A stretch of 6,152 nt of DNA from a virus (IMGVR_UViG_3300045988_001503:1-6152), one strand, 5' to 3'; shown: positions 2,507 through 6,152, numbered from the stretch's first letter. Notes: generated by a model from the letters alone, not told the origin. A program made the numbers and translations.

Positions 2507-2607
2507 ACATTGCTATTCGTTGTCTTATATTTTTATCTATCATCTATTTTTGTTGTGAATATTTGATTTTGCGAAATATTTTGACTCTCGGTAGTAAAAT
2601 AATATTA

Positions 2608-2838
2608 CGTATACATTCTTTAGGACTAGAAGCCCATCGCGGCGTTTGAGCGATATACACCCGCCGCCCGCGTAGGGCCTGGTCTAAAAATGGAGCGGAG
2701 CGACTTCCTTATAGGAGCGCCCCGCTCCGGTATTTTAGCACGGAGTGCGCAAAGGCAGGTTCTATCTGACCTGCCGTGCTTATACCCCCTCCTGTATCCA
2801 TCTACTTGTTAATTAAGCGAAGCCCCTAGTTGTATACG
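2608..2838 (+). other. GC-rich multi-hairpin noncoding module. It is a candidate ssDNA complementary-strand origin (ssi-like) or a structured RNA.
   Basis: Closing stem: CGTATACA (2608-2615) plus ACTAG (2625-2629) pair with the contiguous CTAGTTGTATACG (2826-2838), leaving a 9-nt bulge on the 5' side. Hairpin A: GCCC 2632-2635 pairs with GGGC 2675-2678, and GCGGCG 2639-2644 pairs with CGCCGC 2662-2667. Hairpin B (2692-2728): GGAGCGG/CCGCTCC, GCG/CGC and TCCT/AGGA with loop TAT, 14 bp in total. Hairpin C (2737-2780): AGCAC plus GGCAGGT pair with the contiguous ACCTGCCGTGCT, with a 12-nt bulge GGAGTGCGCAAA. The direct repeat GAAGCCC (2629-2635 and 2819-2825) abuts both arms of the closing stem. 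No track ORF lies wholly within this gap on either strand; the only one reaching it, 2283..2558, merely runs in from within VP2. Confidence 0.6.
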
Positions 2839-2843
2839 AAGTA

Positions 2844-2866
2844 AATTCGAGTTATCCTCTCGAATT
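2844..2866 (+). repeat. Perfect 8-bp inverted repeat hairpin followed by a pyrimidine tract. It may be a terminator-like element or part of the structured module.
   Basis: AATTCGAG (2844-2851), loop ttatcct, CTCGAATT (2859-2866), then ctctctcttcttgtc. There is no clean U-tract, so assignment as an intrinsic terminator is weak. Confidence 0.35.
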
Positions 2867-2916
2867 CTCTCTCTTCTTGTCTATAAACGTACAACTCACA
2901 CTCTACGGTAGGATCT

Positions 2917-2926
2917 AAAAAAAAAA
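2917..2926. repeat. A10 homopolymer tract flanked by GGAT on both sides.
   Basis: The sequence is ggatct-aaaaaaaaaa-ggattt. It ends 8 nt upstream of the -33 element of the predicted promoter. Confidence 0.9.
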
Positions 2927-2934
2927 GGATTTCT

Positions 2935-2966
2935 TTTGGAATTATAAAAAATAGTTTTTATATTTG
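2935..2966 (+). promoter_or_regulatory. Bacteroidetes sigma-A type promoter with -33 TTTG and -7 TAnnTTTG elements. It would drive the small-gene cassette and probably VP4.
   Basis: TTTG lies at 2935-2938 and TATATTTG at 2959-2966, separated by a 20-nt spacer. This matches the published Bacteroides fragilis promoter consensus (-33 TTTG, -7 TAnnTTTG). The next ATG-initiated gene starts at 3011, after an AT-rich leader with no Shine-Dalgarno sequence. Confidence 0.55.
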
Positions 2967-3010
2967 CTCCCAGTTAGAAGTTACAATCATTATTAACATT
3001 TTAAACTCTT

Positions 3011-3211
3011 ATGATTATGCAAAAATTTATTATTTCAGTTAAAGCAAAAGTTACTGGTCATGATGTTGTTCCGCCTTATATCGTTAATTCTCTCGATGGT
3101 CTTGGAACTTATTCTGAGCGAATGTCTTCGTTGGGTTTTATCGTTATTGTGGATTCGATTAAAGAGGAAAACGATTTTGTTTATTTTAAATCTCAAGATA
3201 ATGAAGAGTAA
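3011..3211 (+). CDS. Hypothetical protein, 66 aa, with an acidic C-terminus.
   Basis: This is the first ORF after the predicted promoter. Its T-ending codon bias (gtt, ggt, tct, act, gat) matches the phage genes. Its stop (TAA 3209-3211) overlaps the next ATG (3201) by 11 nt. I recognise no motif. Confidence 0.55.
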   Translation: MIMQKFIISVKAKVTGHDVVPPYIVNSLDGLGTYSERMSSLGFIVIVDSIKEENDFVYFKSQDNEE

Positions 3212-3284
3212 TAATATTTGGAAAATTGTGATTGGTGCTGTATCTGCTGCACTAGGTTATATTCTTAATGCTATTGGACTATGA
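3201..3284 (+). CDS. 27-aa single-pass membrane peptide, a candidate holin-like or membrane-lesion partner of the peptidase.
   Basis: The internal ATG at 3201 of track ORF 3060..3284 gives MKSNNIWKIVIGAVSAALGYILNAIGL. This has a short N-terminus with two Lys, followed by a hydrophobic segment of about 19 residues. Its stop TGA (3282-3284) overlaps the peptidase ATG (3281-3283) as ATGA, the classic arrangement for translational coupling. The upstream part of the track ORF (3060-3200) is the +1 frame of the 66-aa gene and is probably not coding. Confidence 0.45.
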   Translation: MKSNNIWKIVIGAVSAALGYILNAIGL

Positions 3285-3589
3285 ATTGTACTCTTATGCA
3301 TTTTTTTGAATACCTGTTGTATTCTAATGTCCATTTTTCGGTAACTAGCGCTAGACGAACTCCCGAACAAAATAAGGCTTGTAATGGCGCTCCGAATTCT
3401 CAGCATCTTGTGGGTGAAGCTATTGATATTAAACCTTATGGTTCTACTTCGTTTAGTAAGTTGCTCGAAATGATTCATTCTTTCTCTGATAATGTTTCGC
3501 CATTCGATCAGCTCATTATATATCCGGCATTTATTCATGTTTCATTCTGTTCTCGTAATCGTAGGCAGGTAATAGATAAACGTAAATAA
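3281..3589 (+). CDS. Zinc D,D- or L,D-peptidase of the M15 family (Peptidase_M15_3 / YcbK-like fold), a probable endolysin of 102 aa.
   Basis: The block VTSARRTPEQNKACNGAPNSQHLVGEAIDI matches the family signature (S/T)GYR(S/T)PxxNxxxGGxxxSxHxxGxAxD. His42 is at 3404-3406 and Asp49 at 3425-3427, giving H-x6-D. A distal FIHVS contains His86 (3536-3538) at the position of the third metal ligand. There is no signal peptide or cell-wall-binding domain. Confidence 0.8.
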   Translation: MNCTLMHFFEYLLYSNVHFSVTSARRTPEQNKACNGAPNSQHLVGEAIDIKPYGSTSFSKLLEMIHSFSDNVSPFDQLIIYPAFIHVSFCSRNRRQVIDKRK

Positions 3590-3591
3590 TT

Positions 3592-5271
3592 ATGAATTAT
3601 TCTCCCGATTTGATTAAGGCTGTTGATCATTGTCAGCATCGTTCTTTTATCACAAATAGATATAATGGCGCCCGCATTGCTGTAGATTGCGGTCAATGTG
3701 ATTATTGTATTCATAAGAAATCCCAAAAAGCGTCCATGCGTGTGAAGACCGCTGGAAGTGCTTTTAAGTATTCTTATTTCGTTACACTTACTTATGATAA
3801 TGAACATGTTCCTCTTATGGCTTGTAAGGTTTTACATAGTGATTATGATGACGCTCTAGGCATTTCGGGAGATATTCATTTTGGCCATGAATGTCATAAA
3901 TATATTCCTGTTTCTGAATATCAATGTGATGATGACTCCGTGCTGCGTCATATATTCTTCGAGCAAGTACAAGGTACAGTGCCGTTTGACCGTGAGATTA
4001 AGGAATATGCTCCTGTTAAGGATAATTGGTTTCTTAGTATGGCTGCTATTCGTAGTTTTATCTATAAGACGCAATCGGTTGACAAAACGGATTATCCCGT
4101 TTCTGAACAATATGGTCGTGATAACCTTATTCCCTTTTTGAACTATGCTGATGTTCAGAATTATATTAAAAGATTACGTAAATATTTATATAAACAGTTA
4201 GGTTCTTATGAAACGCTACATTTCTACGCTGTCGGTGAGTACGGCCCTGTGCATTTCCGTCCGCATTATCATATCTTATTATTCACGAACTCGGAAAAAG
4301 TCTCAAAGGTATTACGATACTGTCACGATAAGAGTTGGAAATTCGGTCGTTCAGATTTCCAGCTTGCCCGAGGTGGAGCTTCTTCGTACGTTTCGAGTTA
4401 CGTTAATAGCCTTAGTTCTACTCCCTTATTATATCGCTCATGCCGCGCGTTTAGACCCAAGTCGCGTGCGTCTGTCGGATTCTTTGAGAAAGGTTGCGAT
4501 TTCGTGGAAGGTGAAGAACCTTATGCGCAGATTGAGCAAAAAATCGATTCTGTCGTTAATGGAAGAGTCTATAACTTCAACGGTCTCAGTATTCGGTCAG
4601 CTCCACCCATGTCGTATATCCGTACCTTATTGCCCAGATTCTCGTCTGCTCGCAATGACGATAGTATTGCGATTGCTCGAATTCTTCGCGCTGTACACTC
4701 AACGCCAAAGAGAATTGCAAAATTTGGATTCATCGACTATAAACAGGACTCAGTCTTAAGTCTTGTTCGTACTTATTATCAATATCTCAAAGTTCAGAAT
4801 ATTCTTACAGATGATGATAAAATTATATTACATGCTTCTCGGTGTCTTACTAGGTTCTGCAACAGTTCTAGCGATGTCGATATTGAGTCTTATATTAATA
4901 AGCTGTATCGGCTGTTCCTATATGTCCATAAGTTCTTCCGTAACTGGCATTTGCCTTCCTTTGGCTGTAATATTGATTCTTATGCCGGTCGTATTATGTT
5001 TATCATTAAGACAGGTATAGAATATGAGAAGAAGAAGAATTATGAAGATTTGCGAAGTGTATATGGCCTTCGTTCCCAATACCCTGAACTCTCGGATTGT
5101 ATGTTCGTTCTACCTGCGAACGGCCAAGAGTCAGATGTCTTACAGTCTGTTTCACGTGAAACGTCTCAGCTCCTTGAGCAACTCCGGTACCGTAGTGCAA
5201 CATTCTGTCGTGATATGATTAAGCATAAGAAACTTAATGACGCTAATAATATTTTCAATCGTATGGTTTAA
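3592..5271 (+). CDS. VP4: Replication initiation protein VP4, an HUH rolling-circle endonuclease (phiX174 A analogue), 559 aa.
   Basis: RCR motif 1 is FVTLTYD (3778-3798). Motif 2 (HUH) is PHYHILLF, with HYH at 4264-4272. Motif 3 has the double tyrosine YVSSYVNS, with Tyr266 at 4387-4389 and Tyr270 at 4399-4401. The N-terminal Cys/His cluster HCQH...CGQCDYCIHKK is typical of gokusho/alpavirus Rep proteins. Confidence 0.92.
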   Translation: MNYSPDLIKAVDHCQHRSFITNRYNGARIAVDCGQCDYCIHKKSQKASMRVKTAGSAFKYSYFVTLTYDNEHVPLMACKVLHSDYDDALGISGDIHFGHECHKYIPVSEYQCDDDSVLRHIFFEQVQGTVPFDREIKEYAPVKDNWFLSMAAIRSFIYKTQSVDKTDYPVSEQYGRDNLIPFLNYADVQNYIKRLRKYLYKQLGSYETLHFYAVGEYGPVHFRPHYHILLFTNSEKVSKVLRYCHDKSWKFGRSDFQLARGGASSYVSSYVNSLSSTPLLYRSCRAFRPKSRASVGFFEKGCDFVEGEEPYAQIEQKIDSVVNGRVYNFNGLSIRSAPPMSYIRTLLPRFSSARNDDSIAIARILRAVHSTPKRIAKFGFIDYKQDSVLSLVRTYYQYLKVQNILTDDDKIILHASRCLTRFCNSSSDVDIESYINKLYRLFLYVHKFFRNWHLPSFGCNIDSYAGRIMFIIKTGIEYEKKKNYEDLRSVYGLRSQYPELSDCMFVLPANGQESDVLQSVSRETSQLLEQLRYRSATFCRDMIKHKKLNDANNIFNRMV

Positions 5272-5282
5272 TTTTAATTTTG
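5252..5282 (+). promoter_or_regulatory. Possible second Bacteroidetes-type promoter just upstream of VP1 (near-consensus).
   Basis: TAATTTTG at 5275-5282 fits TAnnTTTG. TTTC at 5252-5255 is one mismatch from TTTG, and the spacer is 19 nt. The implied transcript start would fall within a few nt of the VP1 ATG at 5289. The context is AT-rich, so a chance match is quite possible. Confidence 0.25.
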
Positions 5283-5288
5283 TTATTT

Positions 5289-6152
5289 ATGAGTGATTTT
5301 AATCCTTTAGATCGAGCGAAAATTCCTACCCATCGCTCTTCCTTCGACTTGTCTAGTAAAAAATTGTTTACAGCGAAAGTCGGAGAAATTTTACCTTGTT
5401 ATTGGCAGATTGCCATCCCTGATACTAAGTATCGTATTTCCTCCGACTGGTTTACCCGCACCGTTCCGGTTAATACGGCTGCTTATACCCGTATTAAGGA
5501 GTATTATGATTTCTACGCTGTGCCGCTGCGCCTGATTTCTCGTGCGCTTCCGCAGGCATTTACCCAGATGACGGATTATATGACTTCCGCTGCTTCTAAT
5601 TCTGCTAATACAGCACAGTTGACTAGTGTTCCTTATGCTCCTGTTGGTAATATTTCTGCCGAGATTCAAGCTCGTGTGGCTGCTAATACTGTTGACGATG
5701 CTGGCTTTGGCTTCGCCTATGGTTCTTGTAAATTATTGGATATGCTTGGTTATGGTTCATTTGTTGGTGCTGGTAACGCTAAGAAAAAAGAGATTACTAT
5801 GCAGTATCTTGGTCTTGACTCTGCTTCACTCTCTGACGCTCAGAATCCTCTTATTTATGGTACCAGCATTAATTTGAATCTTCTTCCTATTTTTGCCTAT
5901 CAGAAGGTTTATTTCGATTTCTATTCAAATTCCCAATGGGAAAAACATTTGGCTTATTCTTATAATGTAGACTATTGGGATGGTGAGAGTTCTATTGAGA
6001 TTTCCGCTGATATGATTAAGCTTCGCTATGCTAACTATCCTAAGGATTATTTTCTCGGTGTACTTCCTGCTTCTCAATATGGTTCGGTAGCTGTTTTACC
6101 TTCTCAGTCTTCTGCATTTGCTTCTAACCGTGTTGTGTTTAGTCCTAATGAG
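5289..6152 (+). CDS. VP1: Major capsid protein VP1 (phiX174 F analogue), N-terminal part. It continues through the circular junction into 78-953.
   Basis: The ATG at 5289 lies 17 nt after the VP4 stop, and the frame is open to the window end. My own translation gives MSDFNPLDRAKIPTHRSSFDLSSKKLFTAKVGEILPCYWQIAIPDTKYRISSDWFTRTVPVNTAAYTRIKEYYDFYAVPLRLISR ... LLPIFAYQKVYFDFYSNSQWEKH ... PKDYFLGVLPASQYG. These are blocks I recognise as conserved in gokusho/alpavirus-type VP1. The frame is the same as 3..953. The joined length is 1740 nt, or 579 aa. Confidence 0.9.
   Translation, partial: MSDFNPLDRAKIPTHRSSFDLSSKKLFTAKVGEILPCYWQIAIPDTKYRISSDWFTRTVPVNTAAYTRIKEYYDFYAVPLRLISRALPQAFTQMTDYMTSAASNSANTAQLTSVPYAPVGNISAEIQARVAANTVDDAGFGFAYGSCKLLDMLGYGSFVGAGNAKKKEITMQYLGLDSASLSDAQNPLIYGTSINLNLLPIFAYQKVYFDFYSNSQWEKHLAYSYNVDYWDGESSIEISADMIKLRYANYPKDYFLGVLPASQYGSVAVLPSQSSAFASNRVVFSPNE
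6076..6152. repeat. Terminal redundancy, copy 2 (same sequence as 1-77).
   Basis: Exact 77-nt match to the window start. Confidence 0.95.

What the first reader, a model, noticed from the sequence alone, without database searches (positions are those of the whole stretch)
3011..3589. Three overlapping small genes ending in an M15 peptidase: a holin/endolysin-style lysis cassette in a microvirus
The classical Microviridae (phiX174 and relatives) lyse with a single overprinted amurin, protein E, which inhibits MraY. They encode no muralytic enzyme. Here a dedicated accessory block sits between the structural genes and Rep, under its own predicted promoter. Its first gene is a 66-aa unknown (3011-3211). 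This overlaps by 11 nt a 27-aa single-TM peptide (3201-3284). The peptide is ATGA-coupled to a 102-aa M15 zinc peptidase (3281-3589), whose stop lies 2 nt before the Rep ATG. The peptidase has no secretion signal, so it needs a membrane-permeabilising partner. The coupled TM peptide is the obvious candidate. From memory, M15-type peptidase genes have been noted sporadically in uncultured Microviridae. I know of no functional characterisation of a microvirus holin-endolysin pair.
Basis: partly seen in the sequence, partly recalled or inferred. Interest (0 to 1): 0.62.

Follow-up and report, generated by a model that had tools for sequence, protein, structure and literature searches.

The report
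Tiny membrane peptide beside microvirus peptidase
This gut single-stranded-DNA phage carries a known type of small cell-wall peptidase directly behind a real, very strongly conserved but never annotated 27-residue membrane peptide, which is the best candidate for how these abundant phages burst their hosts, although close relatives keep the peptide without the peptidase.

Summary
All three ORFs exist exactly as described: the 11-nt overlap, the ATGA junction and the 2-nt gap before Rep are all there. The 102-aa protein is a minimal Peptidase_M15_3 (PF08291, 38.3 bits against a 23.2 cut-off) with an invariant H-x6-D...H zinc site. Its model is confident and shows the LAS fold. M15 peptidases in microviruses are not new: Roux et al. 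2012 reported them and proposed an endolysin role.

The 27-aa ORF is a real gene. It is intact in 139 of 140 related loci. Its pN/pS is 0.08, against about 0.29 for its neighbours, and no record annotates it. A homologous peptide lies just downstream of the peptidase in a third microvirus lineage.

Seven of 80 peptide-bearing relatives, three of them complete circles, lack the peptidase altogether. The peptide is therefore the constant part and the enzyme is optional.

The 66-aa gene is also real, but its function is unknown. A conserved Bacteroidota-type promoter precedes the block.

The holin/endolysin reading is partly supported. A peptide that causes lysis on its own remains a serious rival. 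This scan has noted the same module before on other genomes.

The parts
2935..2966 (+). Bacteroidota-type promoter match, TTTG-N20-TATATTTG (-33/-7 consensus TTTG ... TAnnTTTG), 45 nt upstream of the first small gene
   Evidence: It is the only match in the window on either strand; 0.17 are expected by chance. An exact consensus match lies at the same relative place in 48 of 73 clade A loci and 52 of 59 clade B loci, and these account for most + strand matches in those loci. The consensus itself is from my own knowledge of Bacteroides promoters.
3011..3211 (+). p66: a small acidic protein without a membrane span, function unknown. Relatives mostly start at the second ATG, 3017.
   Evidence: Third codon positions are the most variable. 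pN/pS is 0.26-0.29 and mean identity 85%. It is kept in relatives that lack the peptidase. The AlphaFold2 model is all-beta with pLDDT 77.9. It has no significant PDB match; in BFVD it matches only uncharacterised microvirus proteins. It has no Pfam, PHROG or NCBIfam family.
3201..3284 (+). TM27: a 27-residue single-pass membrane peptide, MKSNNIWKIVIGAVSAALGYILNAIGL
   Evidence: The hydrophobic span covers residues 9-27 (mean KD 2.01). The small or polar residues G12, S15, A16, G19, N23 and G26 fall on one helix face. The ORF is intact in 139 of 140 related IMG/VR loci that have upstream sequence and in 14 GenBank relatives. pN/pS is 0.08 with pS 0.41. No fetched record annotates it.
3281..3589 (+). 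Minimal M15_3 (LAS-fold) zinc peptidase, 102 aa, with no signal peptide or membrane span
   Evidence: PF08291 scores 38.3 bits against a 23.2 cut-off; residues 19-87 match profile positions 43-107 of 108. R26, S40, Q41, H42, G45, A47, D49, D76, H86 and S88 are invariant in 54 sequences. The AlphaFold2 model has pLDDT 94.7. The best PDB match is 1LBU, a Zn DD-peptidase (probability 1.00, rmsd 2.2 A), followed by VanY, LysECD7, Ply500, LdcB and the T5 endolysin. It is 44% identical to the endolysin of Stenotrophomonas phage Salva, which lies in a holin-spanin cassette.
3592..5271 (+). Replication initiator (Rep), 2 nt downstream of the peptidase; context, probably the same transcript
   Evidence: PF23343 at 1.9e-16; PHROG 942 at 5.8e-33. 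No terminator-like site lies between 3011 and 3592.

Best explanation
The block holds three separately translated genes, probably transcribed together with Rep from a Bacteroidota-type promoter.

TM27 inserts into the inner membrane with its lysine-bearing N-terminus inside. It self-associates along its glycine, serine and asparagine face and, once enough has accumulated, damages or depolarises the membrane. That is the core step of host lysis in this microvirus group.

The 102-aa M15 zinc peptidase has no export signal. It is an added endolysin: it reaches the peptidoglycan only after TM27 has breached the membrane, and then cuts peptide stems or cross-links. The ATGA junction ties its synthesis to that of TM27. 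Because complete relatives lack the peptidase but keep TM27 almost unchanged, the enzyme helps lysis but is not required.

Shown here:
- All three genes are real.
- The peptidase belongs to M15_3 and its metal site is intact.
- TM27 and the peptidase are linked in three lineages.
- TM27 is kept where the peptidase is absent.

Inferred:
- The membrane topology and oligomerisation of TM27.
- Membrane damage by TM27.
- The substrate of the peptidase.
- Any role in lysis.

The role of p66 is not known.
For: - **The TM27 frame is under strong purifying selection.** Its pN/pS is 0.08, against 0.29 for the peptidase, 0.26-0.29 for p66 and 0.30 for Rep. Its synonymous divergence is high (pS 0.41), so the constraint acts on the protein, not the DNA.
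- **TM27 abuts the peptidase in two clades.** The peptidases of these clades are only 45-50% identical.
- **A third lineage has a different gene order.** A peptide sharing the core I-x-A-V-x-A-A-L-x-Y overlaps the 3' end of the peptidase in all 5 members. The two most similar members have identical peptides with only synonymous DNA differences.
- **Possible transfer together.** That lineage includes MG945328 and MG945336. Kirchberger et al. 2022 describe them as different families sharing a recombined 700-nt peptidase region.
- **Homologues are endolysins elsewhere.** In tailed phages they sit in holin/endolysin/spanin cassettes. In Bacteroidales genomes, 65-68-aa proteins with two membrane spans lie directly upstream of related peptidases.
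- **The peptidase has no hydrophobic span**.
- **No other candidate lysis gene is visible** in the 6-kb genome.
Against: - Seven of 80 relatives have TM27 and p66 but no peptidase. Between TM27 and Rep they carry a 51-61-nt spacer with no peptidase remnant. TM27 therefore does not need the enzyme.
- TM27 has no charged C-terminal tail and no dual start, and it matches no holin family.
- Its near-invariance is unlike the rapid divergence usual for holins. It fits binding to a conserved host protein better.
- Several other microvirus lineages with M15 peptidases, and the cultured Bacteroides microvirus phiHBP1, showed no such peptide next to the enzyme in my screen.
- No expression or activity data exist.
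Confidence: 0.5

Rival explanations
1. TM27 is a single-gene lysis protein, a 'protein antibiotic' in the manner of phiX174 E or the 37-residue LysM. Its helix binds and blocks a conserved membrane enzyme of peptidoglycan precursor synthesis or export in Bacteroidales. Growing cells then burst. The peptidase only finishes the job once the cells have opened.
For: TM27 is kept almost unchanged in complete genomes without any peptidase, and those genomes have no room for another lysis gene. Its pN/pS of 0.08 is far below that of every neighbouring gene, as expected for a specific protein-protein contact. Its size and single span resemble known single-gene lysis proteins (papers listed, and my own knowledge). 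Classical microviruses lyse in this way.
Against: It is tightly linked to the peptidase, usually by overlap, in three lineages and in two gene orders. That fits joint action better. It shows no similarity to any known lysis protein. No target is known.
Confidence: 0.22
2. TM27 has a membrane role unrelated to lysis, for example superinfection exclusion or anchoring of replication or assembly. Its position next to the peptidase reflects only the compact genome.
For: It is co-transcribed with Rep and with p66, whose function is unknown. It occurs without the peptidase. It has no holin family match.
Against: It reappears next to the peptidase in a different gene order, within a block that two unrelated microvirus families share. 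Without TM27 the peptidase-less genomes would have no visible lysis gene at all.
Confidence: 0.15
3. The peptidase works inside the cytoplasm on cell-wall precursors, as the M15 enzymes VanX and VanY act on D-Ala-D-Ala and pentapeptide. It starves wall synthesis and needs no membrane partner.
For: It has no export signal. VanY structures are among the closest folds. Small phages are known to lyse by blocking wall synthesis.
Against: Its closest sequence relatives are endolysins in holin/spanin cassettes of tailed phages and peptidases that lie behind holin-like genes in Bacteroidales genomes. The fold match to VanY is weak (rmsd about 6 A).
Confidence: 0.05
4. The 27-aa ORF is not a separate gene. 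It is either a chance ORF, part of a longer 74-aa multi-span protein starting at ATG 3060, or the N-terminal signal anchor of the peptidase, split off by a frameshift or a sequencing error.
For: The same frame is open from 3060 and reads as hydrophobic. Three GenBank records extend the peptidase 21 codons upstream.
Against: Upstream of 3201 the most variable sites are second codon positions of that frame, so it is not coding there. The openness and hydrophobicity follow from T-rich third positions in p66. Relatives have stops there. The extension in the peptidase frame is not conserved (24 synonymous against 446 non-synonymous) and carries stops in the window and three other relatives among the nine compared. 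The arrangement recurs in about 150 independent assemblies.
Confidence: 0.02

Closest known systems
M15_3 peptidase genes of gut Alpavirinae and Gokushovirinae (Roux et al. 2012, PMC3394797); 'peptidase' accessory genes in Kirchberger et al. 2022 (PMC9239249); the M15A metallopeptidase of Bacteroides microvirus phiHBP1 (PMC13064476)
   Same: Same Pfam family, same kind of phage and same gut setting. An endolysin role was already proposed there.
   Different: None of these papers mentions a membrane peptide or holin next to the gene in microviruses. The enzyme here is a shortened 102-aa form that does not match the first 42 profile positions. phiHBP1 has a full-length 134-aa enzyme, and I found no such peptide beside it.
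Holin-endolysin(-spanin) cassettes of tailed phages with M15 endolysins, e.g. Stenotrophomonas phage Salva (MW393850)
   Same: A homologous peptidase (44% identity over residues 21-101) lies next to small membrane proteins. The enzyme lacks an export signal.
   Different: Salva has two holin/antiholin genes of about 105-125 aa and a spanin pair. Here there is one 27-aa peptide with no cytoplasmic tail and no spanin. The peptide also persists in genomes without the enzyme.
Single-gene lysis proteins of small phages (phiX174 E, 91 aa, blocks MraY; levivirus M LysM, 37 aa, blocks MurJ)
   Same: A very small single-span membrane protein in a minimal phage genome. It is the only visible lysis candidate in the relatives that lack the peptidase.
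   Different: There is no sequence similarity. TM27 is not overprinted inside another gene, apart from an 11-nt overlap. It is usually paired with a wall-cutting enzyme, which the classical systems lack. Its target is unknown.
   Same: Similar length.
   Different: No match in the window at E <= 10. hmmscan found no match for four peptide variants.

Membership tests
Peptidase M15 (Pfam PF08291 Peptidase_M15_3; LAS zinc peptidases) | Profile score above the curated cut-off | tested here: met
   38.3 bits against 23.2, E 1.6e-9. All listed relatives carry a precomputed PF08291 match.
Peptidase M15 (Pfam PF08291 Peptidase_M15_3; LAS zinc peptidases) | Zinc ligands H-x6-D and a distal H, within the S-x-H-x-x-G-x-A-x-D motif | tested here: met
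   SQHLVGEAID gives H42 and D49; FIHVS gives H86. All are invariant in 54 sequences.
Peptidase M15 (Pfam PF08291 Peptidase_M15_3; LAS zinc peptidases) | LAS / DD-peptidase fold | tested here: met
   The model has pLDDT 94.7. The top PDB matches are 1LBU, VanY, LysECD7, Ply500, LdcB and the T5 endolysin. E-values are weak (best 6.3e-3) but the hits agree.
Peptidase M15 (Pfam PF08291 Peptidase_M15_3; LAS zinc peptidases) | Full-length domain | tested here: not met
   Only profile positions 43-107 of 108 are matched. Full-length relatives have about 30-45 more N-terminal residues.
Peptidase M15 (Pfam PF08291 Peptidase_M15_3; LAS zinc peptidases) | Peptidoglycan-cleaving activity | not testable with these tools
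   Needs purified enzyme and sacculi.
Holin | Small protein with at least one membrane span, encoded next to the endolysin | tested here: met
   Mean KD 2.01 over 19 residues. ATGA junction with the peptidase.
Holin | Hydrophilic, charged C-terminal tail | tested here: not met
   The peptide ends inside the hydrophobic span (...NAIGL). Its only charged residues are K2 and K8.
Holin | Match to a described holin family | tested here: not met
   No Pfam family. In PHROGs there is only one weak hit, E 0.47, to a family of unknown function. No NCBIfam family.
Holin | Occurs together with an endolysin | tested here: inconclusive
   The two occur together in about 150 loci and three lineages. But 7 of 80 relatives have the peptide alone.
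Holin | Timed lethal hole formation | not testable with these tools
   Needs expression experiments.
Single-gene lysis protein (amurin) | Sufficient for lysis without a wall-cutting enzyme, by inhibiting a peptidoglycan synthesis step | not testable with these tools
   Only indirect evidence: complete genomes without a peptidase keep the peptide.
Pfam DUF6486 (PF20096) | Profile match | tested here: not met
   No match in the window at E <= 10. No match by hmmscan.

The most novel reading that the evidence does not exclude
TM27 is a new class of phage lysis effector and would be the shortest I know of. One version is a 27-residue pore former that is enough to let an 11.8-kDa enzyme out. The other is a 'protein antibiotic' that blocks a conserved membrane step of cell-wall synthesis in Bacteroidales. 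On this reading it is the ancestral lysis gene of a very abundant group of gut microviruses, and the M15 peptidase was inserted behind it later.
Probability: 0.25. Interest if true: 0.8.

Novelty: new variant of a known kind. Interest (0 to 1): 0.58.

Why it matters
Outside the phiX174 group, how microviruses lyse their hosts is unknown, yet they are among the most common phages of the mammalian gut. This work gives a concrete candidate gene that can be made and tested. At 84 nt it is shorter than any CDS annotated in the records fetched here.

It also shows that the well-known peptidase is optional and the peptide is constant, which changes what should be tested first. If the peptide targets a conserved Bacteroidales membrane protein, it would point to a new weak spot in their cell-wall synthesis.

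There is a practical point for annotation too. T-rich third codon positions create long, hydrophobic, stop-free reading frames in these genomes. These can mislead both readers and gene callers.

Tried and rejected
1. **A 74-aa multi-span 'holin' from ATG 3060.** Rejected: upstream of 3201 the frame's second codon positions vary most, and some relatives have stops there.
2. **A peptide-peptidase fusion or frameshift,** as implied by the GenBank CDS of Dulem viruses 226, 238 and 243. Rejected: that frame is not conserved and carries stops, and I saw no slippery site.
No match.
4. **Homology between p66 and the 54-aa ORF upstream of the phiHBP1 peptidase.** hhalign probability is 0.2.
5. **A function for p66 from its structure.** No significant PDB match. 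In BFVD it matches only its own uncharacterised microvirus relatives. No PHROG family.
6. **Peptidase sequence against PDB sequences and NCBIfam.** Nothing found.
7. **Wider survey of distant microvirus peptidases in IMG/VR.**
   - The alignment was too divergent to search with.
   - The MT135448 peptidase found no relatives.
   - The bajarodmic 388 peptidase found only contigs of 14-28 kb.
8. **Host from long contigs.** One is a three-copy concatemer. The other is a possibly chimeric 24.7-kb contig.
9. **Remnant of the peptidase in peptidase-less relatives.** None found, so I cannot tell gain from loss.
10. **Rfam on the window.** No family.

Full report
**What the window is.** The 6152-base window is a complete circular microvirus record with direct terminal repeats. 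All genes lie on the + strand:
- the major capsid gene, split across the ends;
- a 154-aa gene;
- the pilot gene (1418-2506);
- about 500 nt of non-coding DNA;
- the three small ORFs of the finding;
- Rep (3592-5271).

The ORFs are at 3011-3211 (66 aa), 3201-3284 (27 aa) and 3281-3589 (102 aa). The 11-nt overlap, the ATGA junction and the 2-nt gap before the Rep ATG are all as stated.

**The peptidase.** The 102-aa protein passes Pfam Peptidase_M15_3 (38.3 bits, cut-off 23.2). Only profile positions 43-107 of 108 are matched, so this is a shortened domain. PHROG 894, 'endolysin', matches at 2.7e-13.

In 54 sequences down to 43% identity, the motif S-Q-H-L-x-G-x-A-x-D (H42, D49), the distal H86, and also R26 and D76, never change. 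An AlphaFold2 model built on that alignment is confident (pLDDT 94.7). Its best PDB matches are:
- the Streptomyces Zn DD-peptidase 1LBU (probability 1.00, rmsd 2.2 A);
- VanY;
- the phage endolysins LysECD7, Ply500, LysB4 and T5;
- LdcB.

The E-values are weak. The protein has no hydrophobic span.

Its nearest non-microvirus relatives are endolysins of tailed phages. The Stenotrophomonas phage Salva homologue (44% identity) sits in an endolysin, holin/antiholin, holin, i-spanin, o-spanin cassette. In Bacteroidales genomes, related full-length peptidases follow 65-68-aa proteins with two membrane spans.

**What was already known.** Roux et al. 2012 found M15_3 genes in 11 new Alpavirinae and Gokushovirinae genomes. 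They inferred horizontal acquisition and proposed an endolysin role. Kirchberger et al. 2022 list peptidases as likely lysis genes and state that their analysis omits overprinted genes. The first cultured Bacteroides microvirus, phiHBP1, has an M15A peptidase.

The family is very common: 1579 protein clusters match this protein, and GenBank often labels it 'peptidase'. None of the papers I found mentions a membrane partner.

**The 27-residue peptide is a real gene.**
- *Frame test.* In nine GenBank relatives, codon differences in its frame are 303 synonymous to 126 non-synonymous. In the other two frames they are 77/383 and 24/446.
- *Presence.* In IMG/VR the peptide is intact in 77 of 77 clade A loci with upstream sequence. 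It is also intact in 3 further clade A-type loci and in 59 of 60 clade B loci. The one exception carries a nonsense codon and a small duplication.
- *Selection.* Over 40 ungapped clade A sequences, pN/pS is 0.08 (pS 0.41). The values are 0.29 for the peptidase, 0.26-0.29 for p66 and 0.30 for the first 300 Rep codons. Mean identity is 94% for the peptide and 77% for the peptidase.
- *Shape.* Residues 9-27 form one hydrophobic span, with K2 and K8 before it. G12, S15, A16, G19, N23 and G26 line one face of the helix.
- *Annotation.* No record I fetched annotates it. Three records instead extend the peptidase by 21 codons in the wrong frame.

**The longer ORF is an artefact.** The same frame is open from ATG 3060 (74 aa) and looks like a multi-span protein. 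Upstream of 3201, however, its second codon positions are the most variable. Those positions are the T-rich wobble positions of p66, which explains both the lack of stops and the hydrophobic reading.

**Linkage to the peptidase.** In clade A the peptide stop overlaps the peptidase ATG in nearly all loci. In clade B it ends 3 nt before the ATG in most.

In a third lineage, pig-faeces microviruses with a full-length peptidase, a 29-30-residue peptide overlaps the 3' end of the peptidase in all five members. It shares the core I-x-A-V-x-A-A-L-x-Y. MT135448 and MG945328 encode identical peptides whose DNA differs only at synonymous sites. This lineage includes MG945328 and MG945336. The 2022 paper names that pair as different families sharing a recombined 700-nt peptidase region, so the peptide may travel with the enzyme.

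I found no adjacent tiny membrane ORF in four other microvirus lineages with longer peptidases (126-152 aa). The same holds for phiHBP1. Two further lineages have a hydrophobic segment at or just before the peptidase N-terminus, but I did not test whether it is conserved.

**The peptide also stands alone.** I followed a lead from earlier notes of this scan and searched IMG/VR with a degenerate DNA pattern for the peptide. Seven of the 80 contigs returned have p66, the peptide and Rep (81-90% identical to the window's) but no M15 peptidase anywhere. Three of them have terminal repeats and so are complete circles. In these seven, a conserved 51-61-nt spacer separates the peptide from Rep, with no remnant of the enzyme. 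The peptide and p66 are therefore the constant part and the peptidase is optional. I cannot tell whether the enzyme was gained or lost.

**p66.** It is a real gene: third codon positions are the most variable and pN/pS is 0.26-0.29. It is acidic, has no membrane span, and is predicted to be all-beta (pLDDT 77.9). It has no informative structural or family match. Its function is unknown.

**Promoter and host.** The only match in the window to the Bacteroides promoter consensus TTTG-N18-22-TAnnTTTG lies at 2935-2966, 45 nt before p66 (0.17 expected by chance). An exact match lies at the same relative place in 48 of 73 clade A and 52 of 59 clade B loci. No terminator-like site separates the block from Rep. 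These points, together with the faecal sources and the Bacteroidales relatives of the peptidase, suggest a Bacteroidales host. They do not prove it.

**Reading.** My best explanation, at about 0.5, is a two-part lysis module:
- TM27 is the membrane-acting core.
- The peptidase is an add-on endolysin that reaches the wall only after the membrane is breached.

The main rival, at about 0.22, is that TM27 is a protein-antibiotic type of single-gene lysis protein. That rival fits the extreme conservation of TM27 and the peptidase-less genomes well. A role unrelated to lysis (about 0.15) and a peptidase acting on precursors in the cytoplasm (about 0.05) remain possible. The artefact readings are refuted.

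**Novelty.** The peptidase is already known. The peptide gene, its strength of conservation, its recurrence in three lineages and its independence from the enzyme are not in the literature I could search. This scan has, however, noted the same module repeatedly on other genomes.

Noticed in passing
window 2507-3010, especially 2600-2900: A non-coding stretch of about 500 nt between the pilot gene and p66 folds strongly as single-stranded DNA (-50 kcal/mol, z = -5.26). It has a GC-rich hairpin at 2692-2728 and another at 2844-2866. Nucleotide matches to many Dulem viruses start at 2617/2618 and run through Rep, so this stretch, the small genes and Rep behave as one conserved unit joined to different structural genes. 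It may be a complementary-strand origin. No Rfam family matches.
   Followed up: partly
L323:9878-12226: A 24.7-kb Logan contig carries the end of p66, the peptide, the peptidase, Rep and the first 24 capsid codons. This segment is 81-83% identical to window 3158-5352. It is embedded among genes typical of tailed phages (dUTPase, D5_N/DUF5906 primase-helicase, Bro-N), and no microvirus capsid gene lies in the 20 kb fetched. It is either a chimeric assembly or a capture of the module by a larger element.
   Followed up: partly
L005, L006, L007 (Dulem viruses 238, 226, 243), locus positions 1438-1812: The GenBank peptidase CDS is extended 21 codons upstream. That extension is the wrong-frame reading of the peptide gene: it is Cys/Trp-rich and not conserved.
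   Followed up: yes
window 3060-3200, frame of the peptide: T-rich third codon positions of p66 leave the +1 frame free of stops and hydrophobic for 80-134 codons in most relatives. This mimics a multi-span membrane protein. One gene caller called it as a 113-aa ORF in L323.
   Followed up: yes
L123:1100-1200: The one clade B locus with a broken peptide gene has a GAA to TAA change at codon 4 and a short duplication, while its peptidase is intact. It may be a defective genome or a sequencing error.
   Followed up: no
L167, L202, L212, L219, L221, L234, L242: spacer between the peptide and Rep: The conserved 51-61-nt spacer in peptidase-less relatives contains TATATTTG or TATATTTA. This resembles the Bacteroides -7 box and may be a separate Rep promoter.
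   Followed up: no
L278, L288, L296, L299 (Tannerellaceae and Parabacteroides genomes), just upstream of the peptidase match: Proteins of 65-68 aa with two membrane spans (for example MKGVTVQLVMAILLVVGGIVLIFSGFWVAPEGE...) lie directly upstream of related full-length M15 peptidases. They look like holin-endolysin pairs of Bacteroidales prophages.
   Followed up: partly
L324: A 17.7-kb ENA scaffold is a head-to-tail assembly of three copies of a related microvirus genome, not a prophage.
   Followed up: yes
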